From positions 60,399-124,398 of the forward strand of contig ONAB01000002.1 in the NCBI GenBank assembly GCA_900315705.1: 64,000 nt of DNA, given 5' to 3'. The stretch comes from an uncultured Bacteroidales bacterium (GTDB taxonomy: Bacteria > Bacteroidota > Bacteroidia > Bacteroidales > WCHB1-69). Position numbers and translations under genes: made by a program. The notes under the pieces were generated by a model. That model saw only the letters and a list, made by a program, of their open reading frames with translations. It did not search any database and was not told the DNA's origin. Positions 12,712 to 44,019 of this stretch are shown here, piece by piece. Position 1 is the first letter of the stretch. The number at the start of each line of letters is the position of its first letter.

Positions 12712-13986
12712 ATGAAAAAAACGACTCTGTTAGTATTGGCGTTTATATTGACGGCGATGATTCCTGAAACGCCGCTGCACGCGCAGGATCTGGCGCACTA
12801 CAAACGGATTGTCAAGGAGCTGAACTCCGCGAAATACCAAGGGCGCGGCTATGCCTACGGCGGCGCCAACAAGGCGGGGAAGTACCTGTTGAAAGAGTAC
12901 AAGAAAGCGGGCGTGGACGAAGTGAGGTGCCAGCCGTTCACTATCGACATCAACACCTTCCCCGGCAAGATGGAAATGTCCGTTGACGGCAGGAAGTTGA
13001 CCCCGGGCGTCGATTTCTCGATGCGCGAGTACTCGCCCGGCGTGCGCGGCACCTACAGACTCTACTATGTCGATACGAACAACTACGATGCCGAGAAGAT
13101 GTTTGCGGACTTGGCGAAACCCGAGTTCAAGGACTGCTTCGTGGTCTGCGACTTCTGGTTCTCTTATCGTCATTACGGCGACTTCCAGAAAATCTGGGGC
13201 GGCACCGAGTGCGCCAACGCGGGGATGATCCAGACGTGGCCTCCCTTGCTGAAATTCTACAAGGCATACGGCGAGAAGGTGATGGGCAAGCCCGTCATCT
13301 GGGCCACCTCCGACTTCCCGAAAGATGCCAAGACCATCACCGTCAACATCGAGAACGAGTTTCTGAAGGACTACGAACTCTTCAACGTCATCGCCAAGGT
13401 GGAGGGCCGGCGGCACGACAGCTGCTACGTCTTCACGGCGCACTACGACCATCTCGGCAACCTCGGCAAGAAGGTGTTCTATGAGGGGGCCAACGACAAC
13501 GCCTCCGGCAGCGCCGCCATCGTCACGCTCGCGGCCTACTACGCCAAAAGCCGTCCCGAGTACGATATGTACTTCATTGCTTTCTCCGGCGAGGACGCCA
13601 ACCTGCGTGGCTCGGAATATTACGTGGAGCACAACCCTGTCGTGCCGCTCTCACAGATCAAGTACCTGTTCAACATCGATATGATCGGCGACAACAACCC
13701 GGTGCAGTACTGCGAGGTCAGCGACGAGGGATTGCGTGGTTACGCTTTGATGGAACGAATCAACGATGAGAAGCACCATTTCAAGGGACTGAACCGTGCC
13801 GAGTTGGAGGGCAACAGCGACCACTACCCGTTCGCCCTGCGCCACGTGCCGTGCATCCTCTTCGAGAACGAGAGCGGCGACGCGTTCCAGTACTACCACA
13901 CCGTCAACGACGACTGGGAGCACGCCGTATTCAACACGTATGAGCCGCTGTTCCGTTTGGTGCGGGATTTTATCGAAAGATATTGA
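12712..13986 (+). CDS. M28 family metallopeptidase (secreted)
   Basis: Signal peptide MKKTTLLVLAFILTAMIPETPLHA. Zinc-ligand context HYDHLG, NDNASGSAAIV, FSGED, DMIGD, SDHYPF. Confidence 0.85.
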   Translation: MKKTTLLVLAFILTAMIPETPLHAQDLAHYKRIVKELNSAKYQGRGYAYGGANKAGKYLLKEYKKAGVDEVRCQPFTIDINTFPGKMEMSVDGRKLTPGVDFSMREYSPGVRGTYRLYYVDTNNYDAEKMFADLAKPEFKDCFVVCDFWFSYRHYGDFQKIWGGTECANAGMIQTWPPLLKFYKAYGEKVMGKPVIWATSDFPKDAKTITVNIENEFLKDYELFNVIAKVEGRRHDSCYVFTAHYDHLGNLGKKVFYEGANDNASGSAAIVTLAAYYAKSRPEYDMYFIAFSGEDANLRGSEYYVEHNPVVPLSQIKYLFNIDMIGDNNPVQYCEVSDEGLRGYALMERINDEKHHFKGLNRAELEGNSDHYPFALRHVPCILFENESGDAFQYYHTVNDDWEHAVFNTYEPLFRLVRDFIERY

Positions 13987-21267: not shown

Positions 21268-21332
21268 ATATTGTTATTTATTAGGTCAATCGGGTTGCAG
21301 AGGGCGTTTGGACACAAGCATCATCTTTCCAA

Positions 21333-24300
21333 TCAATAATTTCTTTTCAATGTTATGAAATCAGATATCAATGAAATATACCCTTCTTTAATCTGATCCT
21401 CTGTCACATTATCATTGATATTGTCTCTTTTGACAACATGAATCATATATGGAGTGATGTATTCTCCTAACTTACTTCTTATATAATTACGAATCTCATC
21501 ATCTTTCATATTTATTGTTGAATTAAGCAAATCGTCCACCTGCCCTTTTTTTGAGAAAGGAGAATAGATGTAACAATTGCTGTAATTAGGAAAATGTTCA
21601 AAACCTGAAATATAATTTCGTTTAACCACAATTGTCGAGTATTGTTTTAAACCAAATATTGCACTACGTGAACCATGATAATAATCCAATTGCTCTAACT
21701 TAAGCAAATATTCTGTCTCCTTACCACATGTGACAAGATTAGGCCTATAAGATTTGGAATCATCACTATCAAGTTTGTATATTGAACAACGATTGTTATA
21801 TTCTATGATTTCAGTGCACATAAAATTAAACATCAAAGCAACGCCCAAAAAATCGTCTCCCCAAAGGGCCACTTTGTTTTTTAACAAACTCCCGAATTCC
21901 TCTTCGATCCTTTGTTGTTCCTCTGGGATTATCGTATTATAACCATTCGTTTTAAAACCCCCGACCAAATATAACGAAGAACTCTCAAAAAATTTTTTTG
22001 CATTTATCTCTTTATTATTGTAAGAAATTATATTACTTGGAAGCTTTATTTTTTCTAGAACAGATGATTCACAGGAATCAATACGGCAAGCCATTGCTGT
22101 TAAACAATAGTTTAAATATTGAGCATCCAAATCGTGCTTTTTGTTTCCCCTTTTTTTATACATTTCTTTAAATATATTCCCGATAATTCTAATAAAATCT
22201 GGGAAAAGTATGTTTAACAGAGTGTCAGAAATCCATCGTCTTCCATTATAGGTGAGATTATCACGTGATAAGTCCACTATCTTGTCAGTTGTCTGATTGT
22301 GCAAATTCCACTCAAATCCCGAATGTGCTGTTAGAAAGTAATTAAATTTTGCATTAGAAACTAGAACATCTCGAAGGAAAAGTCTTTGCGGAAGATGGTA
22401 GTTACTTAGTTCTTTATCAAACCAGATTGTAAAAGCAGACCCGTACTTCTTTTCAGAAATCTTGAATAATAGATAATCATCTTGGAATCCACATGCAACT
22501 TTATAATCTCCAGACAGATATGCGGTAGCACAATCATTTGTTTTGTTTATTAGAGAGAATTTTCTTTCAGGATTCTCTGGTTCGTACTGAAAAACGTAAT
22601 ACTCTATTCCTCTGAATGTGTTTAATACAAACTCGTCGATTTTTGCTAAGTACACATCATCTCCTTCACCCTTAAAGACATCCACTTTCCCTAAGACATC
22701 CCAGCTAAAAGTAGTCCCAAACAATTCGCTGAATCGTTCCTTGGGAACTTCAACTTTTACGGTTGTCCCTCTTTTTCGCTCAATATTTTCTTCAACGATG
22801 GAACTATATTGATTCTCTGCGGCGGATCTGAAAATGATCCGTTTACTTTTTTCCCCAGGGTAAGAAGTTTCAACCTCAAAAGTAGGTGCAACAAAAAAAA
22901 CAGATTGTAAACCAATTCCAAATGCTGCTGTAGGTTTCAGCCAATATGGCATTGATTGATATACACTATTATAATCGGGGTCTTTCGAATGACTTTCTCC
23001 AACATGTTGGGTCATTCTTAATAAAGTTGCTTCTGAGATGCCTGTTCCACGATCCTCACATTCAAAACATAAGACGTTTTTTTCCTTATCTTTCCACTTT
23101 ATCGAAAGTTTTACTGGATATTGGTTATAAATCATTGGCATAATATCGTCCGGAAAGATAACATCTTCAATTCGTTTGCTTTGCTCAACAAAATATGAAT
23201 CATAAAAACCGGAACAAATATCCGTCCACATCTGTAGCTTACTCGCATCAAAAGCATTTTGAACAATTTCTCTAATAAATGCAAATCCAGGTTCTTTATA
23301 TATTCCTCCACCTTGTATGATTTCGAACATCTTTTTTTGAGACATTGTGAATCTCAAATTAAGAAGCTCTGGTTTCGCCTGTATTCCATTATAAAGAATC
23401 TTAATGCTATCCTTACTGATCACTGGTGGCAACCCTCCTATTTCTTCTGGGACAATATTGGTCCATTCACGACTTTGATTGTTGACCTCTTTTTCTAACC
23501 AATCAAACCAACTTCTCGAGACTCGATACACTTTCTCATCAGGACAATCTAATTCAGCCTCAATTGCTGTTGGAGAAACTAGTTTGTGTTTCACAGAAGC
23601 ATGTTTCAATTGGTGAACTTTTGATATTTCTGGCATTTCCTTCAAAGAAGCGTTGGCATATAAATTAAATCGATTGCTATCAAAATCTAGCAAATCACCT
23701 AATCTCACCATACATGCAATAAAACGAGGATGAATATAGTCCCTCTTAAAACCGTCTGCTTTAAAATATAATTGAGACATTACTTCATCAAAACTTTGTC
23801 CATGCAAATATGCTACATTTGCCAACAAATCAACAAATCTATTAGGTAACTGATCCGCATGATAGTTTTCAGCAAGTTTTTTAAAATCAGTATCTGTCTT
23901 CAGATATTCTGCACTCAATTTCGCATGTTTATTTCTAAACAACTCTGCAGTTATGATAACAACAGCATTTTTAATCTCCAAAGCCCATTTAAATCCATCA
24001 TAGTCATTACACTTATCCGGTTTTTCTTTATAAAAACGCATAATCAACTTTGCAGCATCTGACACTACTATATCGTCACTATTGGAAATATTCTCCAACA
24101 TTTTCTCGAAATCAGATTTGGCCCATTCTTTTTCTATCATTTTATATGTCAATATCATGCCTATGTCATGTGTAAGACTTGCCATCAACAACAAAAATGT
24201 ATCAGTAGCACCTAAACACTTTATACGTTCTGTGCCTAAAAAACTCTGAATATTGTCAATGATAGAATATGAGTGACTTGCATCATGTAAACTAAAATTG

Positions 24301-24452
24301 GGATAGTTTATAGAAACGACATTTAATCCTTGAGTCAAGTTTTTCTTATTAAGATCCCAGATTGAATACAACAATTCGTATTCTTTGTCTTTATCAGATA
24401 AACATTTTAAATGCTTCTCTAAAGTATAATTATTGTCAGTAATATCTCCCAT
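21333..24452 (-). CDS. large HD-domain + GHKL (Hsp90/MORC-type) ATPase fusion protein
   Basis: HD motifs SLHDASHS, LTHDIGM, RLGDLLDFD in the N-terminal ~300 aa. GHKL motifs IREIVQNAFDA (N box), EDRGTGIS (G1), AFGIGLQSVF (G2) from about residue 390. AT-rich; lies 45 nt downstream of the type IIG gene. Confidence 0.7.
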   Translation of the reverse strand: MGDITDNNYTLEKHLKCLSDKDKEYELLYSIWDLNKKNLTQGLNVVSINYPNFSLHDASHSYSIIDNIQSFLGTERIKCLGATDTFLLLMASLTHDIGMILTYKMIEKEWAKSDFEKMLENISNSDDIVVSDAAKLIMRFYKEKPDKCNDYDGFKWALEIKNAVVIITAELFRNKHAKLSAEYLKTDTDFKKLAENYHADQLPNRFVDLLANVAYLHGQSFDEVMSQLYFKADGFKRDYIHPRFIACMVRLGDLLDFDSNRFNLYANASLKEMPEISKVHQLKHASVKHKLVSPTAIEAELDCPDEKVYRVSRSWFDWLEKEVNNQSREWTNIVPEEIGGLPPVISKDSIKILYNGIQAKPELLNLRFTMSQKKMFEIIQGGGIYKEPGFAFIREIVQNAFDASKLQMWTDICSGFYDSYFVEQSKRIEDVIFPDDIMPMIYNQYPVKLSIKWKDKEKNVLCFECEDRGTGISEATLLRMTQHVGESHSKDPDYNSVYQSMPYWLKPTAAFGIGLQSVFFVAPTFEVETSYPGEKSKRIIFRSAAENQYSSIVEENIERKRGTTVKVEVPKERFSELFGTTFSWDVLGKVDVFKGEGDDVYLAKIDEFVLNTFRGIEYYVFQYEPENPERKFSLINKTNDCATAYLSGDYKVACGFQDDYLLFKISEKKYGSAFTIWFDKELSNYHLPQRLFLRDVLVSNAKFNYFLTAHSGFEWNLHNQTTDKIVDLSRDNLTYNGRRWISDTLLNILFPDFIRIIGNIFKEMYKKRGNKKHDLDAQYLNYCLTAMACRIDSCESSVLEKIKLPSNIISYNNKEINAKKFFESSSLYLVGGFKTNGYNTIIPEEQQRIEEEFGSLLKNKVALWGDDFLGVALMFNFMCTEIIEYNNRCSIYKLDSDDSKSYRPNLVTCGKETEYLLKLEQLDYYHGSRSAIFGLKQYSTIVVKRNYISGFEHFPNYSNCYIYSPFSKKGQVDDLLNSTINMKDDEIRNYIRSKLGEYITPYMIHVVKRDNINDNVTEDQIKEGYISLISDFITLKRNY

Positions 24453-24497
24453 AATATGTATATGTTTTTTTTATAATGTTCGTAATTATAAGCTTTT

Positions 24498-27479
24498 TTA
24501 CTTCCCTTCCACCACCTCAATCTCCTCTTCCGTCAACCCATACAACTCATACACCTTTTTATCAATTTCCTTGTCGGTAGTTTCAATTTGGGTTTTGAGG
24601 GACTGACATTCGGTTTTGTATTGGTTGAAATATTCTTCCCATTCGTCTTGTTGAACGAGGGTGAGTTTGATTTTCTGTTTCTTGAGTTCTGCCACAAAGC
24701 CTGCAAAATCAAGATTATCGAAAGTTTCTAATGCTCCGTTGATTTTGATTTCCGACATATTATCCTGCAAACGACGCAAGAACCGCGCACGCTTCTCCTG
24801 TAAATCTTTATTCAGCGCAAGCATGGTGTCAGCAAGCTCAATAAACGGCTGTTGGTTGGCACATTCCGGAATGGGAATATTCTCTAATTGATTTGTCTTA
24901 ATATGCAAACCTGCAGGGTATATTTTCTTAAACCACGTATTTATCAGTTTAGAATTGAGTAGCACCAAAATATACTCAAAAGAATATCGATCATCAAGAT
25001 TGAAGATAATATTCAATGTATCATTACACAAATATTTGTTTGTGTCAAGAGTTGCCGTAATTTCAGTAGCAATGTCTTGGATAACAATCTTTTTATCAAC
25101 AACAAAGTTTTCAAAAATACGTGGTCTTCCTCCAGGCTTTTCACAAATCAATTCTGGTTTATACCAAAGCCACTCATCATTTTGAGGTGTATTCCAACGT
25201 TTAACATTTCTTCCTCGAATGAACAAATGGCAATCATCATCTTTCTTTTCTTCAAAAACAAATCGAGCATCATCACTTGTTTTTATACCGAGAGAAAAAG
25301 AAGCAATCTCTTTAAGAATAGTTGTTGGTATATTGTCTAATTTTAAGGCTCTTTCAAATGAAAATGATGCATTTGGGCTATCCAAAATTTGCTGATAAGG
25401 AAGTACAAAATCTTTTGGTATAAAATCATTGTTGGTAAATTCCTCTAGTTTGATAATGTCTGTTGAAAAGGGCTTTTTGTTTGTATAGAAGCACAACATG
25501 GTTGTAACTGTTGCATCTGTAAATACATCTGCGGGCAGTTTAACCAACTTAGTAACTTTAACTTCTGTAGATAGGAATTGCCTAAAAGAAGAAAAACTAT
25601 CTGTGCCAAGCCAACTATTCGGGAATATAAATCCAAATAAACCATCTTCTTTTAACAATATAGAAGCTTTTTCTGTAAAGATAGAATATAAATCGGACTT
25701 GTTCTTTACCGTTTTATAGTTTTTTTGAAAATACTTGCGTTGGTTCTCATCAAGAATGTTGACCATATTCACATACGGCGGATTACCGATAACTACATCA
25801 AAACCGCCTTTCTCGAACACTTGCGGAAATTCTTTTTTCCAATCAAACGCCTTTTCGCCGGCAATGGAAGGATCGGAAATCAACGAGTTGCCGCATTTAA
25901 TGTTATTATTCAGCGAGTTTAGTTTGCGATGCGGTTTGGCGGTACGAAGCCATAGTGCTAATTTGGCTATCTCTACACTCTCTTCGTTAATATCCACGCC
26001 ATAGAGGTTATTTTCCAAAATGCTGTTTTCCACATTCTGGAACACAATCGATCCCCCTGTAACTTTGGTTTCCATCTCGTCAATGAGTTTGTGTTCATTA
26101 ATAAGGAAAGCCAATGCAGCATTGAGGAACGCTCCACTTCCGCAGGCAGGGTCGCAGATGGTGATTTGCAGCAACCATTCACGATATTGGTTCAGCTGGT
26201 TGACAAGTTTTATCTTGGTCTGTTTTTGGCGTTTTTGGTCGGAAAAATAATCCTCTTCCACCATACCCAATTCCGCTTTCTTCTCGGAACAGAGTTTTCC
26301 CACCGTGTTTTCAACTATGTATTTTGTGATATACTGCGGTGTATAGAAAACTCCGTCACGCTTGCGTTTAGAAACCGCAGGAACCTTTTCGCCACTATTG
26401 ATCTGCGCCGTTACCTCTTCTATCTCATTGAGCGAGTTTTCAAAAATATGTCCGAGAATATTCACATCCACCTCGCTAGCGTAGTCGTATTCCGACAACC
26501 GACGCGTGAAGCGGGCCAACAATTCATCGCTGATTTTCAACCCGTCTAATATCTCGTCGGGTTTAAATAAACCGCCGTTATAGGCAAAGATCTCGTATTT
26601 TTTGCCCTTGAACCCCGTGTCGAGATATCCGAAATACTTTTTGATGCGTGCATAAAGCGGCACATACTCGTCCATCTCTTTCAATTGTTCCCATTGTTCA
26701 AGAATCATTACCATAGAGTTCGGCGGCAACAGTCCGCAGTCCTCGGCAAAGAAGATGAACAGAAGCCGGTCAAGCAGTTTTTGGGTCTTCCTGAAAAGCA
26801 AAAGAATATGCTCTTTGGGCGTGTTCTCGTCCGTGTTATGGGCTACGATATCCGCAAAAATTTCGCGCTTAAATGCCGAATAGTCTTTGTATAGTTGCTG
26901 TGTAATCTGGTCTTCCGAAGAAACCGACTCGCTTTTCACCTTCAACGCGACACCATTCTTCACCTGTGTCCAAGCTATGCAAAGATACAACTCGTTGAAC
27001 TCGTCTTCGGTCATGGCGAAGAGATTCCACTCACGAAAATCAACGGCATTATCTATATAAAGACGCAATTTTTCAAAATTTGAAATAATTACATATCTGG
27101 CATCGCGGTGTTTGCTCTTGTAACCGAACGCTTGTTGCTCAATCTTGCTTAAATCGGTGGTTTTGTGGTCTTTCAACTCAACAACACCAATCACTTTGTC
27201 ATCAAGCAGAATGGCTCCGTCGGCTTTCTTTGAGTTGGTCTCATTCTTTTGTTCGGTAATCAGATTGTAGTCGGGCGAAGGATTCAGCGTATACCCCAAA
27301 ACCTTTACAAACAATTCCCGAAGAAAACCTTCTTGAAACTGTTCCTCTTTGCTTTGCTGTATGTTTGACTGGATATCGGGGTTGAGAAAGTAACTTTTGT
27401 ACTGGTTCCACGCCAGACCAGTTACCTCCAGCGGCAAAGTGGCAAGATATTTTTTGACAATATTCTTTTGAAATAACAT
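24498..27479 (-). CDS. type IIG restriction-modification enzyme (MmeI-like nuclease/N6-adenine methyltransferase/TRD fusion)
   Basis: N-terminal D...ExK nuclease motif (ADGAILLDDKVIGVVELKD). FYTPQYI, AdoMet motif ICDPACGSGAFL, catalytic VIGNPPYV. About 350-aa C-terminal specificity region. Confidence 0.8.
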   Translation of the reverse strand: MLFQKNIVKKYLATLPLEVTGLAWNQYKSYFLNPDIQSNIQQSKEEQFQEGFLRELFVKVLGYTLNPSPDYNLITEQKNETNSKKADGAILLDDKVIGVVELKDHKTTDLSKIEQQAFGYKSKHRDARYVIISNFEKLRLYIDNAVDFREWNLFAMTEDEFNELYLCIAWTQVKNGVALKVKSESVSSEDQITQQLYKDYSAFKREIFADIVAHNTDENTPKEHILLLFRKTQKLLDRLLFIFFAEDCGLLPPNSMVMILEQWEQLKEMDEYVPLYARIKKYFGYLDTGFKGKKYEIFAYNGGLFKPDEILDGLKISDELLARFTRRLSEYDYASEVDVNILGHIFENSLNEIEEVTAQINSGEKVPAVSKRKRDGVFYTPQYITKYIVENTVGKLCSEKKAELGMVEEDYFSDQKRQKQTKIKLVNQLNQYREWLLQITICDPACGSGAFLNAALAFLINEHKLIDEMETKVTGGSIVFQNVENSILENNLYGVDINEESVEIAKLALWLRTAKPHRKLNSLNNNIKCGNSLISDPSIAGEKAFDWKKEFPQVFEKGGFDVVIGNPPYVNMVNILDENQRKYFQKNYKTVKNKSDLYSIFTEKASILLKEDGLFGFIFPNSWLGTDSFSSFRQFLSTEVKVTKLVKLPADVFTDATVTTMLCFYTNKKPFSTDIIKLEEFTNNDFIPKDFVLPYQQILDSPNASFSFERALKLDNIPTTILKEIASFSLGIKTSDDARFVFEEKKDDDCHLFIRGRNVKRWNTPQNDEWLWYKPELICEKPGGRPRIFENFVVDKKIVIQDIATEITATLDTNKYLCNDTLNIIFNLDDRYSFEYILVLLNSKLINTWFKKIYPAGLHIKTNQLENIPIPECANQQPFIELADTMLALNKDLQEKRARFLRRLQDNMSEIKINGALETFDNLDFAGFVAELKKQKIKLTLVQQDEWEEYFNQYKTECQSLKTQIETTDKEIDKKVYELYGLTEEEIEVVEGK

Positions 27480-27521: not shown

Positions 27522-27529
27522 CAAAACTA
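27522..27529 (-). promoter_or_regulatory. candidate -7 box (reverse complement TAGTTTTG)
   Basis: 43 nt upstream of ATG 27479. Confidence 0.4.
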
Positions 27530-27645: not shown

Positions 27646-29673
27646 TTATTGTTTTTTCTTTGTGGTGTATTTTTGGTTAGGATGGTTTATCATTTCTGGG
27701 ATGGTATAGAAAAGTTTACCTTGTGCCATAAGCGGGTTTATATAATGATTGCGTAAGAAAACCATATTTCTATGTAACAGGATTGAAATTTCATATATAC
27801 TAAACGGATGTAAATCACACAATTCAATTAGCAATTTTTTCATCTCTTCTTCAGGCGCTCTTTTCCCAATTTTAAAAATTTTCTCTTTCAATGCTTCCGG
27901 CAATTCATCAGCTCCATACATTTCTCCATCTGCTCCATACATTTCTCCGTTAGCTCCATACATTTCTCCGTTAGCTCCATACATTTCTCCGTTAGCTCCA
28001 TACATTTCTCCGTTAGCTCTACTTATTGTTCCGTCAAGCTTACCATTTTTTCCGTTAGGTTTTCTATTTTCTCCCGTAGGTATACCATTTTCTCCATCAA
28101 GTTTACCATTTTCTCTGTCAGGTTTACCATTTTCTCTGTCAGGTTTTCCGTTTTCCCCCACAGGTTTACTATTGAGCTTTATGAATTCCGGCCCAGCAAT
28201 ATAGTAGGCGTTTCGTTTCTGTCCTTTCAGTTCAAACAAGCCTGCTTTACACATGCGATGCAGGTCAAAAGTGGCTTTTCTGGACGTGATATCACTGTTT
28301 AACTGACGATAAGTAATGTTGTCAATCGCGCCCAATTCACGGATAAAAATCAACGATAACTTTTGTTCGTTATTCAATTCATATTTGGCAAATAGCGAAA
28401 GCCATTCGATATCGTCTCTCCCCAGTAAATGATGAAATAGCAAACGGGTTGTAAACTTGTTGGTTTCTCTATTCGATTCAAAAGTTGGAGGCATCAGCTT
28501 CGCCTTTTTCATCTGTTCACGCATTGTATTGATACCAGACCCCTTTGTCTCAGCCAAATTGGTTTCATGGAAAATCGAACTTATATACTGGTTTCTCAAT
28601 TCTGAACCTGGCTCACCAAGGTGTTCGGGCGATTTCAAGGAATAACCTGGATTTGTAATTTCCAAACGATTAGAATATCTAATAATTTGAATGGGTTGGT
28701 TCACTCGAAACGAACGGTGAATGAATGCGTTAACAATAGCCTCACGCAATGTGTCGTTTGGAATGTCAATAGGTGTTGAGGCTTGCAGGTTGCCGTCTTT
28801 AAGTTCAAAGCCTTTGGGCAAATCATCTGTAATGGCACTCAACGCACGATTGACCAAAAGAATAAAAGCACCGCGCATGTCAATCGTCGATTCAAAACGC
28901 CTGTCAGGATTCTCCACCCATCTGTTACCGGAAACTCGAATATAATCAACTCTTAACGCAGGCATCAATCGCCTCAAAGCCATTGTTCTTCCGAAAACAA
29001 TCAATCCAGTATAGGTAAGGACATACTCTTCTGATTTATCTTTCTCACAAGCTCTCAAGGCCAACAATAGGTTGGTGTCGTCGTAAGTTAATTCTTCGGC
29101 ATTTGGATTAACCTTTTCTCTCAATCTCCTATAATATGACAATGCATTTTCATCAATGTCGTCCAGACTTGAGCCTTTAACGATAGAGCAATCGAAACTC
29201 TCTGCTGAGGAATAGAAAACAGGCATGTCGTCCTCAGTACATTTTTGATCCGACGGGCCTATTCTACGATACGCACCTTGTGGTAGACCTCTCTTTTCAA
29301 AATAAACAGGCTTTTGCGACAATGGCGCTTCATCTACTTTCACAACGATAACTGTTTTGCCGTCAACCACCTCTGTTTCAATCTGTGGACGAATGCGTAT
29401 GTTAAAAACCGAGGCACATTGGTTGGCAATATCTGTTTGGATTTTATCAGGATTCTCAATGTTTTCCGGCTCATAAACGGGAAAACCGTTCTCATCAAAC
29501 CCTTTCCTCACGGCTCCCAAAAGAATATAGCCGCCATCCAAATCGGGTTCGTTGGCAAAAGCACAGATGGTTTCCAGAATGCTCTTTCCTACTTCCGAAG
29601 CTCTTTTTGCCTCAATTCTGACACCTTCATCGCCAGCATTCAATTCATTGAATAGTTCTCGTGCCATTCTCAT
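27646..29673 (-). CDS. AlbA_2 (Schlafen-type) + HATPase_c_4-like putative DNA-binding regulator with tandem-repeat linker
   Basis: N-terminal ICAFANEPDLDGGYILLGAV block. Central EAIVNAFIHRSF...ITNPG...LRNQYIS...ETKGSGINTM block. Heptad repeats ENGKPDR and ANGEMYG. The track start (29682) is TTG; ATGs at 29673 and 29667 are more likely. Confidence 0.7.
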   Translation of the reverse strand: MRMARELFNELNAGDEGVRIEAKRASEVGKSILETICAFANEPDLDGGYILLGAVRKGFDENGFPVYEPENIENPDKIQTDIANQCASVFNIRIRPQIETEVVDGKTVIVVKVDEAPLSQKPVYFEKRGLPQGAYRRIGPSDQKCTEDDMPVFYSSAESFDCSIVKGSSLDDIDENALSYYRRLREKVNPNAEELTYDDTNLLLALRACEKDKSEEYVLTYTGLIVFGRTMALRRLMPALRVDYIRVSGNRWVENPDRRFESTIDMRGAFILLVNRALSAITDDLPKGFELKDGNLQASTPIDIPNDTLREAIVNAFIHRSFRVNQPIQIIRYSNRLEITNPGYSLKSPEHLGEPGSELRNQYISSIFHETNLAETKGSGINTMREQMKKAKLMPPTFESNRETNKFTTRLLFHHLLGRDDIEWLSLFAKYELNNEQKLSLIFIRELGAIDNITYRQLNSDITSRKATFDLHRMCKAGLFELKGQKRNAYYIAGPEFIKLNSKPVGENGKPDRENGKPDRENGKLDGENGIPTGENRKPNGKNGKLDGTISRANGEMYGANGEMYGANGEMYGANGEMYGADGEMYGADELPEALKEKIFKIGKRAPEEEMKKLLIELCDLHPFSIYEISILLHRNMVFLRNHYINPLMAQGKLFYTIPEMINHPNQKYTTKKKQ
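27911..28015. repeat. perfect 21-bp tandem repeat x5 (coding, in frame)
   Basis: Unit gctccatacatttctccgtta repeated five times head-to-tail (the first unit differs at 3 nt). Encodes ANGEMYG x5 on the minus strand. Confidence 0.95.
28030..28172. repeat. degenerate 21-bp tandem repeat (about 6-7 units, coding)
   Basis: Units related to aggtttaccattttctctgtc, two of them identical. Encodes ENGKPDR/ENGKLDG-type heptads. Confidence 0.85.
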
Positions 29674-29734
29674 AATCTGCAAATTTATGAATTAAAACTT
29701 TCCGAGATGATGATCTCAGGATAAATTCAAAACG

Positions 29735-35963: not shown

Positions 35964-36080
35964 CAACTTTAAATTATACAAAGTTCACCACCGCAAACAC
36001 CTACGGCACACGGAAAACACCGTGGCAAACAAAATCGCCGGCAAGTTCATCCGATCAATGGCAAAGGAGGGCTGCTTAAT

Positions 36081-36944
36081 TTACCGCGTAATTTGATCTG
36101 AAGTTTTCTTCAACCTAGGACAATCATTCAAATTCTTTTTGAAATTCCTTTGCGGAAAACCTCGCATAGAATACCATCCTTCAGTCGTTTTATATGCGAC
36201 ATTCACACTTGCTGAATGCGACAACATTCGAATCAGATACTTGTAAGGCATAAGCAAAGTCTTAACGCCTCCTGCCGCACTTGAAGAATCGACAAACACC
36301 TCATCTTCATATAAAACATCCACCACAGTGTATGTACTGTCATAGAAAGCGATTTGAACACTGTCCATTTTGTAATCTTGGAAGTTGGTGATTACGAAAC
36401 TGGCAAGAGGATCTTCACCATCCTTATCTATGGTAAGAATCATATTGGCAAAGTGCCACGGGGTTTGCCAGGGGTCTGGGGTAATCGTGTAGCACATAAG
36501 TTCCACATCTGTCGAGTACACGGTTTGCCAATCCATTAGGCGACTGATCGACTCGCTTGAACAATCGCATTGTAGAATCCGTTCATCCCTTGGCGCTTGT
36601 GCCCAAAAGTTATCCGCCGTGGCCCGCATCATCAGGGTAAACTCAAACGCAGAGTCATTGGCAATGACCTCAGCCATTCGGTCTATCATTCGGCACACCT
36701 GATCCGCATGGGCTTCGACAGCTTGGGTGCTATCTTCCAGAAAATAATAGACGGAATCTATCAAATTGATAAGCGAGAGCCGTTGGCTGTCGTTGATTTC
36801 ATAATCCGCTGCCCAACTCCGCAGGAAATCCGGCCAGCGAACCGCCTCGGTTTCTTCAGTTGCTTTTTTTGCGGTGCTGCAAGAGGAGAGCGCGAAGAGG
36901 CAGAGGGCGAGAATTGCGAATTGTATGTACTTCAGGTGTTTCAT
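36081..36944 (-). CDS. lipoprotein of unknown function
   Basis: Start set at ATG 36944 (MKHLKYIQFAILALCLFALSSC lipobox). No family recognised. Confidence 0.55.
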   Translation of the reverse strand: MKHLKYIQFAILALCLFALSSCSTAKKATEETEAVRWPDFLRSWAADYEINDSQRLSLINLIDSVYYFLEDSTQAVEAHADQVCRMIDRMAEVIANDSAFEFTLMMRATADNFWAQAPRDERILQCDCSSESISRLMDWQTVYSTDVELMCYTITPDPWQTPWHFANMILTIDKDGEDPLASFVITNFQDYKMDSVQIAFYDSTYTVVDVLYEDEVFVDSSSAAGGVKTLLMPYKYLIRMLSHSASVNVAYKTTEGWYSMRGFPQRNFKKNLNDCPRLKKTSDQITR

Positions 36945-37232
36945 TGTTATTATTTGTTTTATTTTTCTGAATATATCGGCATCTTTTCCTGGTGTTTTGA
37001 AAAAATCGGCGATGCTTATTTTGGAATTTCGGGTGCGAAACATGAATGAATGATGGTCATTATCAAGAAAACGACTTTGTTTGTTTTACTTGGCGTGTCC
37101 TGATTGTTCGTTTCTTTATAGTTGTTCATACTGCTTTGAGATAGGCGTTAAAATAATTTGTTATCTCTCCCAGTAAGTCATCGGTTTGTCCTTGACATCT
37201 CCTTTTTCATTTTTCGACGGGGAAGTAGATTC

Positions 37233-37433
37233 CTATGCCTTTGATGGGTGATGATCGATTTTTTCATTTTCCCCCGCCGGTTCATGTTTTTTTTCCTTTT
37301 TCTTCCCAAAATAAATTAGAACAATGCCTAACGCCAGCCAAAACAAAGGGCCAAAAACACTGTGTCCGGCGGCAAGACCACCGATAAAAGCGAGACCGCC
37401 TATTGCCGTAAAAATATAGCCTGCAATTTTCAT
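37233..37433 (-). CDS. small membrane protein (66 aa)
   Basis: Two hydrophobic helices and a Lys/Glu-rich tail. Lies 3 nt after the stop of the upstream small ORF. Confidence 0.4.
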   Translation of the reverse strand: MKIAGYIFTAIGGLAFIGGLAAGHSVFGPLFWLALGIVLIYFGKKKEKKHEPAGENEKIDHHPSKA

Positions 37434-37436
37434 AAT

Positions 37437-37625
37437 CTATTCCTCCATTTTTTCAGGTTCAACATTATCAATTTTCTTTGAACAAAGCACTGCGATCAAA
37501 CCGATGACGACATTGAGTAGCGAGATGGCGAATGCCAGTCCAAAACCTATTTTCCGAGTGCGACCCAAACAGCCGATGCCATATGCGAGACTTACCGCGA
37601 TTACTAATAAAATGATCTTTTCCAT
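37437..37625 (-). CDS. small membrane protein (62 aa)
   Basis: Two hydrophobic helices. Directly preceded by conserved cassette A. Confidence 0.4.
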   Translation of the reverse strand: MEKIILLVIAVSLAYGIGCLGRTRKIGFGLAFAISLLNVVIGLIAVLCSKKIDNVEPEKMEE

Positions 37626-37636
37626 TATTTGTTTAT

Positions 37637-37704
37637 TTTATTTGTTACATCTCTTTATGACAAATTACCGCCAAAGGTTAACAAGCCAACAGATTTATTT
37701 TTCG
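37637..37704. repeat. 68-bp leader/promoter-like cassette, copy A
   Basis: About 90% identical to 38251-38318. Its minus strand still reads ...RKINLLAC-stop, a relic of the helicase gene 3' end. Confidence 0.8.
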
Positions 37705-37792
37705 GTGTCCATTGCTTGAAAATTTGATTATCATTGCCTAGTCTATATTACAGTTTTCAGCTTCCCTGCGTAAAAAAGCGTGATGTTGTTTC

Positions 37793-38077
37793 CTATTTTA
37801 GGTAATTGCAAGCCAACACAATAGATGAAACAACCCACAAGAATGTAAACAGTAAGCAAATTATTCTCGTTCTTTTCCTTATTCTGCTCATCTTTTCACT
37901 TTCTTCGGTCAACTGTTTGTTTTCTTCCTCTAATAAATTGATTTTTTCTTTAAGTCTCATTTCAACATCATCTTTTCTAAGTATGATATTGACGAGTTCT
38001 GTTTTTGTCTTGTCTAAAAGCGCCATATCTTGTTCGTTTTTATTGTGTGATTCTTGTTTCATTATTGCCAACCTCAA
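37793..38077 (-). CDS. coiled-coil protein with C-terminal TM anchor (94 aa)
   Basis: Lys/Glu-rich heptad-like region (LKEKINLLEEENKQLTEESEKM) followed by IICLLFTFLWVVSSIVLAC. Confidence 0.4.
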   Translation of the reverse strand: MRLAIMKQESHNKNEQDMALLDKTKTELVNIILRKDDVEMRLKEKINLLEEENKQLTEESEKMSRIRKRTRIICLLFTFLWVVSSIVLACNYLK

Positions 38078-38240
38078 TTCTCTCTTTGTATTTCATTCTT
38101 CGCCGGATAGCCAGTATGATCATTGGCCATGCGATGATAGTACACAGGATGTCCATCACCCAACTGGCGACACTTTCATTGAATTCTACATTGGAGTTGA
38201 ATTCGGCAATTTCTTCAGGGGTCATTTTTTCTTTTTTCAT
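38040..38240 (-). CDS. small membrane protein (66 aa)
   Basis: One clear TM helix (VMDILCTIIAWPMIILAI). Preceded by cassette B and overlaps the next ORF by 38 nt. Confidence 0.4.
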   Translation of the reverse strand: MKKEKMTPEEIAEFNSNVEFNESVASWVMDILCTIIAWPMIILAIRRRMKYKERIEVGNNETRITQ

Positions 38241-38250
38241 TTTATTCTTT

Positions 38251-38318
38251 TTTATTTGTTATACCTCTTTATGACAAATCACCTCCAAAGGTTAACAAGC
38301 CGACAAATTTATTTTTCG
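38251..38318. repeat. 68-bp leader/promoter-like cassette, copy B
   Basis: tttatttgttatacctctttatgacaaatcacctccaaaggttaacaagccgacaaatttatttttcg. Includes the last 8 codons and the stop of the helicase gene. Confidence 0.8.
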
Positions 38319-40358
38319 AATTTTTGAAGAAAACGATTTGAACACAGAATCCTCTTTGACAGAGTCTTTTAATATTGTCATGAAATCAGCTTCAGACACG
38401 GCCATATCATTAAATGCAACAACCAGTTTGTTCTCTTCCTCATCTTCTTTCACCTCAATGGTTACATTGTTGGCCATGGCTACTTTGCGGATTATCCGAT
38501 ATGCCGGGAGATACTTGGGCACCATTTTGATCAGGTGCAAACACGTATCAACATTCGGATTGCCAAGTTGCTCATTGAGTTCTGCTTCGAACAAGTATTG
38601 TTTCTTATCAACAACTATTCTGTCATCCGATTTTTCACCGGCAGAACGAATCAATTTGGCTATTTCCATAGCCTCTTCAAAGCGGTTCAGTCCCTGCAGG
38701 GCTTTCCCTTTGATGAACATGGCTTCGAGACAGGCGCGGCGGTCAAGCACCATGTCTGCATAGCCGATGGCCTCCTCCAGACGATCGCCATACAAACAAA
38801 CAACTGCATTGAGAAAATTACACGTCATGCTGCAATCCTTCAGCAAGGCAACATCTTTTGTTAAATCTTTCAGGCATTTGTCGTCGAGCATTATGTCAAA
38901 CATCTTTTTCGCCAGCAATGCCGCATTGCGGTAATCTCCTGCTTTCATTTTCTCCAACGACCATTGCAAGCATTCCTTGGCGGCACTGTCATAATCCTTG
39001 TCTTGGATATGTTTGTAAAGTAAACGGCCATGGTTTAGTTCATCATCAATCAAAAGAATGTCGTTGAACGAATTGGCAAAAGCTTTGATCTCTGTGTTTT
39101 GCAAAATATGATTGTGACGAATCTTGTTGCTGAGGGTTAGACCGTCAAGGCTCCGCATACGGCTTATCGCCACGTAAGCCTGACCGGGCGCAAAGGTCCC
39201 ACGAGTAAGGTCGAAGTGCATGCGATCAAAGGTCATGCCTTGCGACTTGTGGATGGTGATGGCCCAAGCAAGCTTCAACGGATATTGGGTAAACGACCCT
39301 GTAATTTCTGTTTCCACTTGCTTGGTCTCTTTGTTATACTCGCTTTCGCGTTTTTCCCACCTCATCTTTTCAACATTGATCTCATTGCCGTTTTCCAACG
39401 CCACCTTGATGTTATCATCGCTTAATTCAACAACCTTGGCTATGGTTCCATTTACTAAACCTTGGCCAAAGTCGTTGCGGCAGAATATCACCTGTGCTCC
39501 GACTTTCAGCCGCAACTCCATCGGAACGGGCGTGTCCTGAATGCGAAAATTACCATCAATATCTCCTTTATAGCAGAACTCTTCCGAATCAATATCGTCC
39601 AACTTCTTTTCGTTGATGCCATCGGCCAATTTAACACGAGCGGTTAAAATGACTGCAAAATCTCCAACCGTATCGTTCGTGCTCACTTGCTGATTCAGTA
39701 TGTCCAAATCCTCATTCGTGTTTTCGCCCAAACGCATCCTGTCAAGTATGTCCAAAAATCGCAAATCCTTTTGTCGATACACCTTTTGGAACTCAATCTT
39801 GGGCAGATTCATCCGCTTTATCACATTGGACTTATAGAAGTACGGGGTGCCACTCCCGTACATATCGCACAACATTTCATAATCAGCCGAACCGTACTTC
39901 ACCACGGGCGGCAACTGAAACAGGTCGCCAACGAAAACCACCTGTTTTCCGCCAAATGGCGAATGCGTTTCCTCTAGCGAGCGCAGGAAGCGGTCGATAC
40001 TGTCCACCCAATCGCAACGCACCATTGAGGCCTCATCGATAATAATTGTGTCTGTGTATTTTAGCACATCTCTTTTTTCTCTTGAGACTTCTAATTTCGT
40101 GCCAGACCCAATGGCTTCAAACGGCAAACCAAAGAAAGAGTGAATCGTTTGTCCTCCCACATTCATTGCGGCGATGCCAGTAGGAGCCAGCACCAAGAAG
40201 TTCTTCTTGATGAGCTTCTGAATACCTTTAATAAATGTGGTCTTACCGGTACCAGCCTTACCTGTTACAAAGAGACTGGTATTGATGTTTGCTACAAGGT
40301 CGAAAGCCTTCTGCTGCTCGACATTTTCTGGATCAATCTTGAATTCTACTTTCTCCAT
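38292..40358 (-). CDS. Pif1/RecD-like SF1 helicase with C-terminal TPR-like extension
   Basis: Walker A VTGKAGTGKTT, IIIDEASMV, VFVGDLFQLPPV, ITIHKSQGMTFD, YVAISRMRS. About 230 extra C-terminal helical residues. Confidence 0.85.
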   Translation of the reverse strand: MEKVEFKIDPENVEQQKAFDLVANINTSLFVTGKAGTGKTTFIKGIQKLIKKNFLVLAPTGIAAMNVGGQTIHSFFGLPFEAIGSGTKLEVSREKRDVLKYTDTIIIDEASMVRCDWVDSIDRFLRSLEETHSPFGGKQVVFVGDLFQLPPVVKYGSADYEMLCDMYGSGTPYFYKSNVIKRMNLPKIEFQKVYRQKDLRFLDILDRMRLGENTNEDLDILNQQVSTNDTVGDFAVILTARVKLADGINEKKLDDIDSEEFCYKGDIDGNFRIQDTPVPMELRLKVGAQVIFCRNDFGQGLVNGTIAKVVELSDDNIKVALENGNEINVEKMRWEKRESEYNKETKQVETEITGSFTQYPLKLAWAITIHKSQGMTFDRMHFDLTRGTFAPGQAYVAISRMRSLDGLTLSNKIRHNHILQNTEIKAFANSFNDILLIDDELNHGRLLYKHIQDKDYDSAAKECLQWSLEKMKAGDYRNAALLAKKMFDIMLDDKCLKDLTKDVALLKDCSMTCNFLNAVVCLYGDRLEEAIGYADMVLDRRACLEAMFIKGKALQGLNRFEEAMEIAKLIRSAGEKSDDRIVVDKKQYLFEAELNEQLGNPNVDTCLHLIKMVPKYLPAYRIIRKVAMANNVTIEVKEDEEENKLVVAFNDMAVSEADFMTILKDSVKEDSVFKSFSSKIRKINLSAC

Positions 40359-40387
40359 AAAGCTAACCTATTTGCTTGTTTCTGTTG

Positions 40388-40420
40388 CTTTATGACAGAA
40401 ACAAGCAAAAGGTTAACAAG
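40388..40420. repeat. short copy C of the cassette core
   Basis: ctttatgaca-N10-aaaggttaacaag is shared with copies A and B. It lies 30 nt upstream of the helicase ATG. Confidence 0.6.
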
Positions 40421-44018: not shown

Positions 44019-44019
44019 G

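What the first reader, a model, noticed from the sequence alone, without database searches (positions are those of the whole stretch)
21333..27479. 1039-aa HD + GHKL-ATPase fusion protein coupled to an MmeI-like type IIG restriction-modification enzyme
Seen in the sequence: the gene 45 nt downstream of the type IIG R-M gene (same strand, same AT-rich composition) fuses an HD phosphohydrolase/nuclease-type domain (LHDASHS, THDIGM, GDLLDFD) to a GHKL ATPase (EIVQNAFDA, DRGTGIS, FGIGLQS) and to about 500 further residues I cannot assign. Established knowledge: GHKL ATPases of the MORC/paraMORC type have been described by comparative genomics as partners of restriction-modification genes, and HD domains are recurrent effector nucleases in defence systems. 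Inference: I do not recognise this HD-GHKL single-polypeptide architecture as a component of any named defence system. It may be an ATP-driven accessory or effector module of the R-M enzyme, or an independent one-gene defence system riding in the same islet.
Basis: partly seen in the sequence, partly recalled or inferred. Interest (0 to 1): 0.65.

Follow-up and report, generated by a model that had tools for sequence, protein, structure and literature searches.

The report
HD phosphohydrolase fused to HSP90-like ATPase
The gene encodes a metal-dependent HD phosphohydrolase fused to a complete but very divergent HSP90-type ATPase, a widespread and already catalogued but untested candidate anti-phage protein that here sits behind a restriction-modification gene in a small defence islet of a rumen Bacteroidales bacterium.

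Summary
In detail: two same-strand ORFs of 993 aa and 1039 aa, 45 nt apart, in an AT-rich islet, with every quoted motif present. The interpretation needs correcting.

- **Fold.** The GHKL part is HSP90-type, not MORC. The roughly 500 unassigned residues are largely accounted for by an HSP90 middle domain, which carries the catalytic-loop arginine, and probably a C-terminal domain.
- **Known family.** The N-terminal domain is Pfam PF24391, "HD-CE" (conflict effector). The fusion is a large family: 801 clusters at E<=1e-30 across at least four phyla. All HD and ATPase catalytic residues are invariant.
- **Autonomy.** The gene behaves as an autonomous cassette. A 95%-identical copy lies behind an unrelated methyltransferase gene, with DNA homology ending at the gene borders.
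- **Neighbours.** In about 12 of 21 Bacteroidota contexts with at least 40% identity to the window protein, it lies next to restriction-modification genes of several types, and often next to a Schlafen-GHKL gene. Distant members stand alone.

Best reading: a single-protein defence module in which the HSP90-like ATPase gates a nucleotide-directed HD effector. Here it is probably co-transcribed with the type IIG enzyme. It is a new member of a computationally predicted, experimentally untested kind.

The parts
21333..24452 (-). Gene for the 1039-aa HD-CE + HSP90-like fusion protein
   Evidence: ORF and translation. 540 full-length homologues of about 1030-1060 aa. AF2 model with pLDDT 80.
23481..24302 (-). 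HD-CE phosphohydrolase domain (aa 51-324). Conserved residues: H56, H60, H95-D96, R173, H176, R205, H217, R250, D253, D256, D258, R261
   Evidence: Pfam PF24391 at E=5.1e-42. Residues are invariant in 27 Bacteroidota sequences (whose numbering is -1) and in 13 sequences from four phyla.
22728..23300 (-). HSP90-type Bergerat ATPase domain (aa ~385-575): N-box E395/N399/D402, DxGxG D467/G469/G471, G2 box G512/G514
   Evidence: Profile alignment to HtpG: FiREivqNalDAs aligns with FLRELISNASDAA, DkGtGi with DNGVGM, FGiGlqS with FGVGFYS. Weak NCBIfam HSP90/HtpG hits. Residue invariance.
21336..22727 (-). HSP90-like middle and C-terminal region (aa 576-1039). The catalytic-loop motif VDLSRDNL (aa 726-733, nt 22254-22277) carries R730
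   Evidence: The HtpG middle domain aligns up to profile position 761, with the family 'dlsRdnl' on HtpG 'NVSREIL'. Foldseek alignments of 735-780 columns to full-length Hsp90, TRAP1 and GRP94. R730 is invariant in four phyla.
24453..24497 (-). 45-nt AT-rich spacer between the R-M gene and the HD-HSP90 gene, with no terminator-like hairpin and no Bacteroidetes -7 motif
21316..24554 (-). Extent of the 94.6%-identical DNA shared with locus L001: the HD-HSP90 cassette, its spacer and the last ~57 nt of the upstream gene
   Evidence: blastn gives window 24554-21316 = L001 9899-13149. Homology ends at both gene borders.
24498..27479 (-). MmeI-like type IIG restriction-modification enzyme (993 aa)
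   Evidence: Pfam Eco57I, MmeI_Mtase, MmeI_hel, MmeI_N (weak) and TaqI_C. PADLOC REase_MTase_IIG at 2e-253. Orthologues lie upstream of HD-HSP90 in L020 and L022.
27522..27529 (-). TAnnTTTG (Bacteroidetes -7-like) motif 50 nt upstream of the type IIG start. Candidate promoter of a bicistronic IIG/HD-HSP90 transcript
   Evidence: The pattern is short, so this is suggestive only.
27646..29682 (-). Schlafen (AlbA_2) + GHKL (PF13749) 'Schlatpase' protein with internal heptad repeats and a C-terminal Fic-like_C/HTH-like tail. Third gene of the islet
   Evidence: Pfam. PADLOC pAgo N-terminal region at 1.9e-15. Homologues recur next to HD-HSP90 genes. The supradomain is described in bioRxiv 10.64898/2026.05.29.728809.

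Best explanation
The 1039-aa protein is a self-contained conflict (anti-phage or anti-mobile-element) module of the HD-CE/HSP90 family. It has two parts.

- An N-terminal HD metal-dependent phosphohydrolase, the effector. It most likely hydrolyses free nucleotides or another small phosphoester substrate.
- A complete, highly divergent HSP90-like ATPase: Bergerat N-domain, middle domain with the catalytic arginine, and probably a C-terminal dimerisation domain.

Proposed mechanism:
- The protein is a C-terminally held dimer.
- An infection cue is sensed by the HSP90-like client-binding surface.
- The cue drives the ATP-dependent N-terminal closure typical of HSP90.
- Closure switches on, or brings together, the HD domains.
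- Their activity collapses a nucleotide pool and arrests phage replication, possibly at the cost of the cell.

In this window the gene has no promoter motif or terminator of its own. It is probably expressed as the second cistron behind an MmeI-like type IIG R-M enzyme. Together with an upstream Schlafen-GHKL gene this makes a three-gene, horizontally acquired defence islet between housekeeping genes.

Shown here: domain identities, intact catalytic residues of both enzymes, family size and spread, cassette-like mobility, and defence and R-M neighbourhoods. Inferred: defence function, substrate, trigger, dimerisation and gating.
For: Domains:
- HD-CE at E=5e-42.
- The family profile hits HtpG at 2e-8, with the N-box, G1 box, G2 box and middle-domain SR motif aligned.
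- The AF2 model (pLDDT 80) has full-length HSP90s as its top 50 PDB matches, probability 1.00, 550-780 aligned columns.

Activity: every HD metal/catalytic residue and E395, N399, D467, G469, G471, G512, G514 and R730 are invariant from Bacteroidota to Bacillota, Alpha- and Gammaproteobacteria.

Family: 3972 representatives at E<=1e-3 and 801 at E<=1e-30. Nearly all of the top 150 are 950-1100 aa with the HD domain at the N-terminus. Distant members keep HD-CE + GHKL.

Autonomy:
- Most of the 30 species-level loci have large gaps or opposite-strand neighbours.
- A 94.6%-identical 3.25-kb cassette sits behind a non-orthologous methyltransferase gene (25-30% aa identity).
- Stand-alone loci mostly carry a TAnnTTTG motif upstream. 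Copies tight behind an R-M gene do not.

Defence context:
- Neighbours include SIR2, AbiJ, KAP NTPase, Fic, AAA_15/21, MNT-HEPN, type IIG, type IIS and other R-M genes, resolvases and VapE.
- The window islet has low GC and lies between DNA-alkylation-repair/EamA and PEMT/hydrolase genes.
- Copies occur on plasmids, near Abi or AAA+UvrD genes.

Expression: metatranscriptome contigs cover the gene and run about 230 nt into the upstream gene.

Literature: 'CE' means conflict effector. The sister family Calcineurin-CE was predicted to target nucleotide pools and was then shown to deplete dNTPs in defence (PMC12871103).
Against: - No experiment on any family member was found.
- PADLOC-DB v2 has no model that hits the protein.
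- The substrate is unknown. The only sequence similarity of the HD domain to a solved structure is a non-significant match to cyclic-nucleotide phosphodiesterase PDE8A (E=0.14). The HD-only structure model was too poor to search with.
- The HSP90 C-terminal domain assignment rests on Foldseek alignment lengths only.
- Some loci are flanked by housekeeping genes on one or both sides.
- The key paper defining HD-CE could not be read, so its content is quoted from memory.
- Metatranscriptome contigs may include DNA carry-over.
Confidence: 0.6

Rival explanations
1. The HD-HSP90 protein is a dedicated accessory or second-line effector of m6A restriction-modification systems. It could be an ATP-driven partner of the type IIG enzyme, or a backup that fires when restriction fails or when methylated DNA breakdown products appear.
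For: - In about 12 of 21 Bacteroidota contexts with at least 40% identity to the window protein, an R-M methyltransferase gene lies within three genes upstream. Nine are on the same strand with 3-95 nt gaps.
- The R-M types differ: MmeI-like IIG, Eco57I/TaqI_C with a PLD-SNF2 helicase, HsdR_N-N6_Mtase + S subunit, EcoRI_methylase + GmrSD-HNH, and Dam-like methyltransferases + RE_AlwI.
- Eco57I is the commonest Pfam family among 108 neighbours.
- The IIG/HD-HSP90 pair co-diverges in the window, L020 and L022.
- No own promoter motif or terminator is seen here.
- In a Calcineurin-CE system, m6-dAMP from degraded methylated DNA is the trigger.
Against: - The partner R-M type is not conserved and is exchanged around a 95%-identical cassette.
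- The MmeI-like enzyme is a complete single-chain R-M enzyme.
- Many Bacteroidales copies and all 17 distant loci lack an adjacent Eco57I-type gene.
- R-M genes are the commonest defence-island residents, so adjacency can reflect island structure. Recombination at the conserved IIG 3' end is another route.
Confidence: 0.15
2. It is the same architecture, but the HD domain is a nuclease acting on DNA or RNA, like the Cas3 or Cas10 HD domains, rather than a nucleotide-pool enzyme.
For: The H...HD...H...H...D pattern with several conserved arginines also fits two-metal HD nucleases, from general knowledge of the HD superfamily.
Against: The Pfam family is named as a 'conflict effector' in a study of nucleotide-targeting effectors. 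The only, non-significant, similarity to a solved structure is to a cyclic-nucleotide phosphodiesterase. No DNA- or RNA-binding domain was detected.
Confidence: 0.15
3. The HD domain degrades a signalling nucleotide (cyclic mono-, di- or oligonucleotide). The protein would then regulate or terminate another system's signal, or act as an anti-defence or immune-evasion factor of a mobile element.
For: A weak PDE8A-like 'H-D/N-x-x-H-S ... HD' signature. Lactamase_B/anti-Pycsar-like genes lie within a few kb in several loci. One hit in a fragmentary, unannotated 'Bacteriophage sp.' record.
Against: No cyclase or CD-NTase gene is consistently nearby. The PDE8A match is not significant. The Lactamase_B genes are not adjacent and sit among housekeeping genes.
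Confidence: 0.07
4. It is a housekeeping or stress chaperone paralogue with an attached nucleotide-metabolism domain, unrelated to conflict.
For: Fold and motif similarity to HSP90. Some loci are flanked by metabolic genes.
Against: No conserved synteny. Patchy distribution across phyla. Low-GC islet. Cassette transfer at 95% identity. Plasmid copies. Frequent defence neighbours. HtpG/HSP90 equivalog models score far below threshold, 31.8 against 455 bits.
Confidence: 0.03

Closest known systems
HD-CE (Pfam PF24391) effector coupled to HSP90-related modules, as predicted by Nicastro, Burroughs, Iyer and Aravind, NAR 2023;51:11479
   Same: The N-terminal domain matches PF24391 over its whole length. 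It is fused to an HSP90-like ATPase. It occurs in defence and mobile contexts. 'CE' means conflict effector, predicted to act on nucleotides.
   Different: Nothing was found that separates the window protein from this family. What is added here: the HSP90-specific catalytic-loop arginine, cassette-level mobility, the recurrent placement behind R-M genes and beside Schlafen-GHKL genes in Bacteroidales, and transcription evidence. The paper could not be read here, so overlap with its content is judged from memory.
HSP90 family chaperones (HtpG, Hsp82, TRAP1, GRP94)
   Same: Bergerat ATPase motifs, the middle-domain 'SRE/D-x-L' catalytic loop, and overall three-domain fold similarity.
   Different: About 11-15% identity. 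Equivalog models are far below cutoff. It has an extra 380-aa N-terminal HD enzyme. It is not a conserved housekeeping gene but a mobile, patchily distributed one.
MORC/paraMORC GHKL ATPases of R-M neighbourhoods (Iyer, Abhiman and Aravind 2008), including paraMORC-Ymh(HEPN) fusions (PMC3710099)
   Same: A GHKL ATPase joined to an enzymatic effector and found beside R-M genes. A true HATPase_c_3 + Ymh protein next to a DNA methylase even occurs 8 kb from the HD-HSP90 gene in L013.
   Different: Different GHKL clade: HSP90-type middle domain with an arginine, not a MutL/MORC S5-fold transducer. HATPase_c_3 scores below cutoff. No MORC or MutL appears among the top structural matches.
Sacsin (HSP90-like repeat regions + HEPN)
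   Same: An HSP90-like ATPase module in one polypeptide with a nuclease-type effector domain (PMC3710099). Weak hits to sacsin models.
   Different: Sacsin is eukaryotic and giant, has a HEPN rather than an HD domain, and is not a defence-island protein.
PUA-Calcineurin-CE-HAD defence system (bioRxiv 2026, PMC12871103)
   Same: A 'conflict effector' phosphoesterase gated by a sensor module. It has a demonstrated dNTP-depleting abortive-infection mechanism and a link to the host m6A methylome.
   Different: Unrelated effector fold (calcineurin-like rather than HD). Unrelated sensor (PUA rather than HSP90-like). Two genes rather than one.
STAND/NLR-like and other ATP-switch defence proteins such as Avs and bNACHT
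   Same: Single large polypeptides that combine an NTP-driven oligomerisation switch with an N-terminal effector enzyme. This is a functional analogy.
   Different: The switch here is a GHKL/HSP90 fold, not a P-loop STAND NTPase. No repeat-type sensor domain was detected.

Membership tests
HD-CE (Pfam PF24391) | Match to the family profile above the curated cutoff over its full length | tested here: met
   E=5.1e-42, 144.8 bits against cutoff 27, profile 2-262 of 263. The same holds in distant members.
HD superfamily phosphohydrolase | Conserved H...HD...D metal-binding residues | tested here: met
   H56, H60, H95-D96, H176, H217 and D253 are invariant. The generic PF01966 model matches only weakly, at E=0.084.
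HSP90 family | Bergerat ATPase motifs: N-box E/N, DxGxG, and a GxxGxG-like G2 box | tested here: met
   The motifs align with HtpG's and are invariant.
HSP90 family | Middle domain with a catalytic-loop arginine (HtpG LNVSREILQ) | tested here: met
   The family motif vDlSRdnLt aligns to HtpG NVSREIL. R730 is invariant in four phyla.
HSP90 family | C-terminal dimerisation domain and a dimeric state | tested here: inconclusive
   Foldseek alignments of 735-780 columns to full-length HSP90s suggest coverage of the C-terminal domain. No residue-level mapping was done and no oligomer was modelled.
HSP90 family | Orthology to HtpG/HSP90 (curated equivalog score) | tested here: not met
   NF010683 scores 31.8 bits against cutoff 455. 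NF003555 scores 29.6 against 371. It is a divergent HSP90-like paralogue, not a chaperone orthologue.
MORC/paraMORC GHKL | HATPase_c_3-type GHKL followed by an S5-fold (MutL-like) transducer | tested here: not met
   HATPase_c_3 scores 18.8 bits, below cutoff 25. The top 50 structural matches are all HSP90s. The transducer motif is HSP90-type.
Type IIG (MmeI-like) R-M enzyme (the upstream gene) | Single chain with an N-terminal PD-ExK nuclease, helical spacer, gamma-class N6A methyltransferase and a TaqI_C-type target-recognition domain | tested here: met
   MmeI_N (weak, 23.5 bits), MmeI_hel, MmeI_Mtase, Eco57I and TaqI_C. PADLOC at 2e-253. The D...ExK motif is visible.
Named anti-phage systems in PADLOC-DB v2.0.0 | Match of the HD-HSP90 protein to any model | tested here: not met
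   0 families at E<=0.1.
Anti-phage defence system (functional class) | Protection against phage or plasmid in vivo | not testable with these tools
   Only context evidence is available.

The most novel reading that the evidence does not exclude
The HD-HSP90 protein is functionally wired to m6A restriction-modification. This would be more than island co-residence. In Bacteroidales it would act as a second layer. It would sense failure or inhibition of the adjacent R-M enzyme, or methylated-nucleotide breakdown products. It would then shut down nucleotide supply, with the Schlafen-GHKL neighbour as a third cooperating layer. The reading is suggested by its repeated placement as the last cistron behind at least five different kinds of N6-adenine R-M systems, even when the R-M gene is swapped.
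Probability: 0.15. Interest if true: 0.7.

Novelty: new member of a known kind. Interest (0 to 1): 0.4.

Why it matters
If the prediction holds, an HSP90-fold ATPase would serve as the sensor and switch of an innate immune effector in bacteria. That role is so far assigned mainly to STAND/NLR NTPases and other nucleotide-dependent switches. It would also add an HD-fold enzyme to the nucleotide-depleting effectors.

The family is large (about 800 clusters at 50% identity) and abundant in gut and rumen Bacteroidales. No experimental study was found, and PADLOC-DB v2.0.0 has no model that matches it, so tools built on that release would not flag this gene in such islets.

The work also points to tractable homologues in cultured strains: Lachnospira eligens ATCC 27750 (WP_012740570.1) and Pantoea agglomerans plasmid pPA-MXU-125 (WP_324700951.1). 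It defines the point mutants needed.

Tried and rejected
- **MORC/paraMORC assignment:** rejected, because the fold, profile and catalytic loop are HSP90-type.
- **E. coli genomes:** no DNA match. The organism is a rumen Bacteroidales.
- **First genome scan with the single protein:** found nothing. It worked with alignment A1.
- **Search with the HD domain alone in the word-indexed database:** returned only fragments of the same family, so no alternative architectures were seen.
- **HD-domain-only AlphaFold model:** poor (pLDDT 55), and its Foldseek hits were meaningless.
- **Sequence profile of the HD domain against PDB:** only a non-significant PDE8A hit.
- **Literature searches:** HD-CE, GHKL + HD + anti-phage, Hsp90-like defence, and HSP90 + antiphage found no study of this family. 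The defining NAR 2023 paper is not held.
- **Sigma-70 promoter scan:** not above shuffles (35 against 27.3 +/- 4.8) and not appropriate for Bacteroidetes.
- **Co-transcription from metatranscriptomes:** could not be settled. The runs seem to carry the cassette in another context.
Full report
**Observation**

The minus strand carries three consecutive ORFs:
- 27646..29682 (678 aa)
- 24498..27479 (993 aa)
- 21333..24452 (1039 aa)

The last two are separated by 45 nt. GC falls to 0.35-0.41 across 22-30 kb against about 0.52 on both sides. The flanking genes are ordinary: DNA-alkylation repair and EamA on one side, PEMT-like methyltransferase, hydrolase and prolyl oligopeptidase on the other.

**What the three genes are**

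- The 993-aa protein is an MmeI-like type IIG R-M enzyme. It hits Eco57I at 3e-47, plus MmeI_Mtase, MmeI_hel, TaqI_C and a weak MmeI_N, and PADLOC REase_MTase_IIG at 2e-253.
- The 678-aa protein is a Schlafen (AlbA_2) + PF13749 GHKL protein. A 2026 preprint names this supradomain 'Schlatpase', finds it in defence islands, and shows that in SLFN-pAgo it forms an ATP-dependent tRNA nuclease.
- The 1039-aa protein has an N-terminal HD domain that matches Pfam PF24391 'HD-CE' at 5e-42 over the whole profile. It gives only sub-threshold hits to generic GHKL models and to HtpG/HSP90 equivalogs. It has no PADLOC hit.

**The C-terminal two thirds are an HSP90**

I aligned 27 full-length homologues (alignment A1).
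- The profile finds E. coli HtpG in PDB at E=2e-8. The alignment runs from the ATPase domain into the middle domain.
- The family motif 'FiREivqNalDAs' lies on HtpG 'FLRELISNASDAA'.
- 'DkGtGi' lies on 'DNGVGM', and 'FGiGlqS' on 'FGVGFYS'.
- 'vDlSRdnLt' lies on 'LNVSREILQ', the HSP90 catalytic loop that supplies the arginine to the ATP gamma-phosphate.
- An AlphaFold2 model (mean pLDDT 80) has only HSP90-family structures among its 50 best PDB matches: TRAP1, Hsp90, Hsc82 and GRP94. Probability is 1.00, with 550-780 aligned columns against targets of 450-650 residues.

The MORC/paraMORC attribution is not supported. The C-terminal domain assignment rests on alignment length only.

**Both enzymes look active everywhere**

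These residues are identical in 13 proteins from Bacteroidota, Bacillota, Alpha- and Gammaproteobacteria and in the 27-sequence alignment:
- HD domain: H56, H60, H95, D96, R173, H176, R205, H217, R250, D253, D256, D258, R261.
- HSP90-like part: E395, N399, D402, D467, G469, G471, G512, G514, R730.

**Family size and spread**

- The full protein has 540 homologues at 90% clustering, nearly all 1030-1060 aa, mainly from Bacteroidales metagenome assemblies. They are named only 'ATP-binding protein' or 'HD superfamily phosphodiesterase'.
- A profile of the HD domain alone finds 3972 representatives at E<=1e-3 and 801 at E<=1e-30 among 1.84 billion. Nearly all of the best 150 are 950-1100 aa with the HD domain at residues ~2-345.
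- The fusion is therefore the dominant architecture of this branch.
- Species-level genomes with the gene include Bacteroidales, Chitinophagaceae, Spirosoma, Hyphomicrobiales, Clostridium and Lachnospiraceae.
- Distant members keep HD-CE + GHKL.
- Copies also lie on plasmids of Lachnospira eligens ATCC 27750, Hymenobacter and Pantoea agglomerans, near an Abi gene or an AAA-ATPase/UvrD pair and an integrase.

**Is it a partner of the R-M enzyme?**

Contexts with precomputed Pfam labels show the gene directly behind, and on the same strand as, five different arrangements:
- an MmeI-like or Eco57I-type enzyme (window, P0001)
- a PLD-SNF2 helicase + Eco57I/TaqI_C methyltransferase + unknown gene (P0060)
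- EcoRI_methylase + GmrSD-HNH (P0071)
- HsdR_N-N6_Mtase + S subunit (P0013)
- two Dam-like methyltransferases + RE_AlwI (P0046)

It is divergent from a split Eco57I operon in P0115. It has no R-M neighbour in a SIR2/AbiJ/KAP island (P0017), behind Nqr genes (P0091), near MNT-HEPN pairs (P0057), or behind an AAA-ATPase_like/PDDEXK_9 gene (P0098).

In the 30 species-level loci, an iterated search finds an Eco57I-type gene next to the HD-HSP90 gene in six, all Bacteroidales (L019-L022, L030, L031), and nowhere else in the flanks. Eco57I is the most frequent Pfam family among 108 neighbours, with 6 hits. Next come AAA_14, Fic, VapE and resolvase, and the PADLOC candidates PDC-S01 and PDC-S04. Most other loci show large gaps or opposite-strand neighbours.

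Overall, about 12 of 21 Bacteroidota contexts with at least 40% identity to the window protein have an R-M gene just upstream. None of the 17 distant ones has an Eco57I-type gene adjacent.

**Cassette behaviour**

- The window and locus L001 share 94.6% DNA identity over exactly window 24554-21316: the gene, the spacer and the last ~57 nt of the upstream gene. They share nothing beyond that.
- The upstream methyltransferase genes are only 25-30% identical at the protein level.
- L001 also has, just after the HD-HSP90 gene, a 44-nt remnant of a IIG 3' end encoding '...ILYGLTKEEIKVVEGKE'. This remnant is closer to the window's IIG end than to L001's own. That hints at cassette shuffling by recombination at this conserved 3' end.
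- Conversely, in the window, L020 and L022, orthologous IIG genes and HD-HSP90 genes diverge in step: IIG 55-70% identity, HD-HSP90 56-65%. In that sublineage the pair travels together.

**Expression**

- There is no terminator-like hairpin between the two genes.
- The Bacteroidetes -7 motif TAnnTTTG occurs 60 nt upstream of the Schlafen-GHKL gene and 50 nt upstream of the IIG gene. It does not occur within 348 nt upstream of the HD-HSP90 gene.
- Stand-alone or divergent loci mostly have the motif 25-225 nt upstream. Copies tight behind an R-M gene do not.
- Rumen metatranscriptome contigs from two runs cover nearly the whole gene and continue about 230 nt into the upstream gene. They do not cover the rest of the IIG gene, and they carry several mismatches near the junction. 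Those samples probably hold the cassette in another context, and DNA carry-over cannot be excluded.
- I infer a bicistronic IIG/HD-HSP90 transcript here. This is not proven.

**A second recurrent neighbour**

Homologues of the Schlafen-GHKL gene lie within two genes of the HD-HSP90 gene in the window, L001, L010, L020, L022, L048 and L052. In five of these they are immediately downstream, with gaps of 5-240 nt. They lie within 7 kb in L025 and L034. This family is very abundant, so chance co-residence in islands is possible. The tight spacing deserves a test.

**What is known**

- 'CE' stands for 'conflict effector'. A 2026 preprint on PUA-Calcineurin-CE-HAD cites Nicastro, Burroughs, Iyer and Aravind (NAR 2023;51:11479) as the source of the -CE families.
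- That preprint states that these effectors were predicted to act on nucleotide pools. It then shows dNTP depletion triggered by m6-dAMP.
- The 2023 paper is not in the library.
- From my own memory of its abstract, it names Calcineurin-CE, HD-CE and PRTase-CE. It also reports systems that use HSP90- and HSP70-related modules as analogues of STAND and GTPase switches coupled to such effectors.
- The architecture is therefore already catalogued by comparative genomics.
- I found no experimental work on it.

**Mechanism proposed**

- Shown: the domain identities, the intact active sites, and the mobile, defence-associated contexts.
- Inferred: a C-terminally dimerised HSP90-like scaffold senses an infection cue and undergoes ATP-driven N-terminal closure. 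This activates the HD domains, which hydrolyse nucleotides, or less likely nucleic acids or a signalling nucleotide, and stop phage replication.
- The only hint about substrate class is a non-significant PDE8A-like signature.

**Verdict**

The finding is real and correctly located. Its domain reading is right at superfamily level but wrong in clade. Its claim of an unrecognised architecture does not hold. It is a new member of a predicted, untested kind. The recurrent R-M and Schlafen-GHKL adjacency and the clean cassette boundaries are the parts worth following up.

Noticed in passing
L001:13247-13369 (remnant at 13319-13362); window 24502-24545: Just downstream of the HD-HSP90 gene in L001 there is a 44-nt remnant of a type IIG gene 3' end ('...ILYGLTKEEIKVVEGKE*'). 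It is 93% identical to the 3' end of the window's IIG gene. This suggests cassette shuffling by recombination at this conserved C-terminal coding motif.
   Followed up: partly
window 27646-29682; also L001:5337-6722, L010:13127-14569, L020:10769-11986, L022:13120-14697, L048:11306-12769, L052:11299-12486: Schlafen(AlbA_2)+GHKL(PF13749) 'Schlatpase' genes recur within two genes of HD-HSP90 genes. They are often immediately downstream, with gaps of 5-240 nt. They could be a cooperating partner, or only a frequent island co-resident.
   Followed up: partly
window 27910-28173: Two adjacent arrays of 21-nt tandem repeats lie inside the Schlafen-GHKL gene. They encode heptad peptide repeats (GEMYGAN about 5 times, GKPDREN-like about 7 times) between the GHKL domain and the C-terminal tail. 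This could be a variable linker.
   Followed up: partly
window 36000-46200: A second low-GC stretch (0.36-0.44) lies here. It has a PIF1-like helicase (38292-40358), a 1025-aa TPR + CHAT protease-like protein (40941-44018) and three small same-strand genes without Pfam hits or not examined (44020-46179). It is probably another conflict island.
   Followed up: partly
window 61053-62903: A second Schlafen-GHKL paralogue (61053-62897) abuts a tRNA-Leu(CAG) gene (62819-62903) on the same strand. The ORF's annotated start overlaps the tRNA, so the true start is probably further in. tRNA genes are common integration sites.
   Followed up: no
window 24498-27479 compared with L020:4328-7573 and L022:6881-9967: The window's IIG enzyme is 64% identical to the L020 orthologue over aa 1-667 and again near the C-terminus. 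The stretch at about aa 670-790, the target-recognition region, does not align. The orthologues probably recognise different sequences.
   Followed up: partly
L013:20315-23038: A DNA_methylase gene followed by a HATPase_c_3 + Hypoth_Ymh (paraMORC-HEPN) gene lies about 8 kb downstream of an HD-HSP90 gene.
   Followed up: no
window 21381-24686 (runs X25, X26): Rumen metatranscriptome contigs cover the HD-HSP90 cassette and about 230 nt upstream, but none of the remaining IIG gene. They show clustered mismatches at 24501-24624. The transcribed copies in those samples probably sit behind a different upstream gene.
   Followed up: partly
L029:9938-13214 and L027:9980-13168: In a Chitinophagaceae locus (L029) and an uncultured Bacteroidetes locus (L027), the HD-HSP90 reading frame is split into two ORFs (702+393 aa and 108+934 aa). 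These are possible frameshifts, pseudogenes or assembly errors.
   Followed up: no
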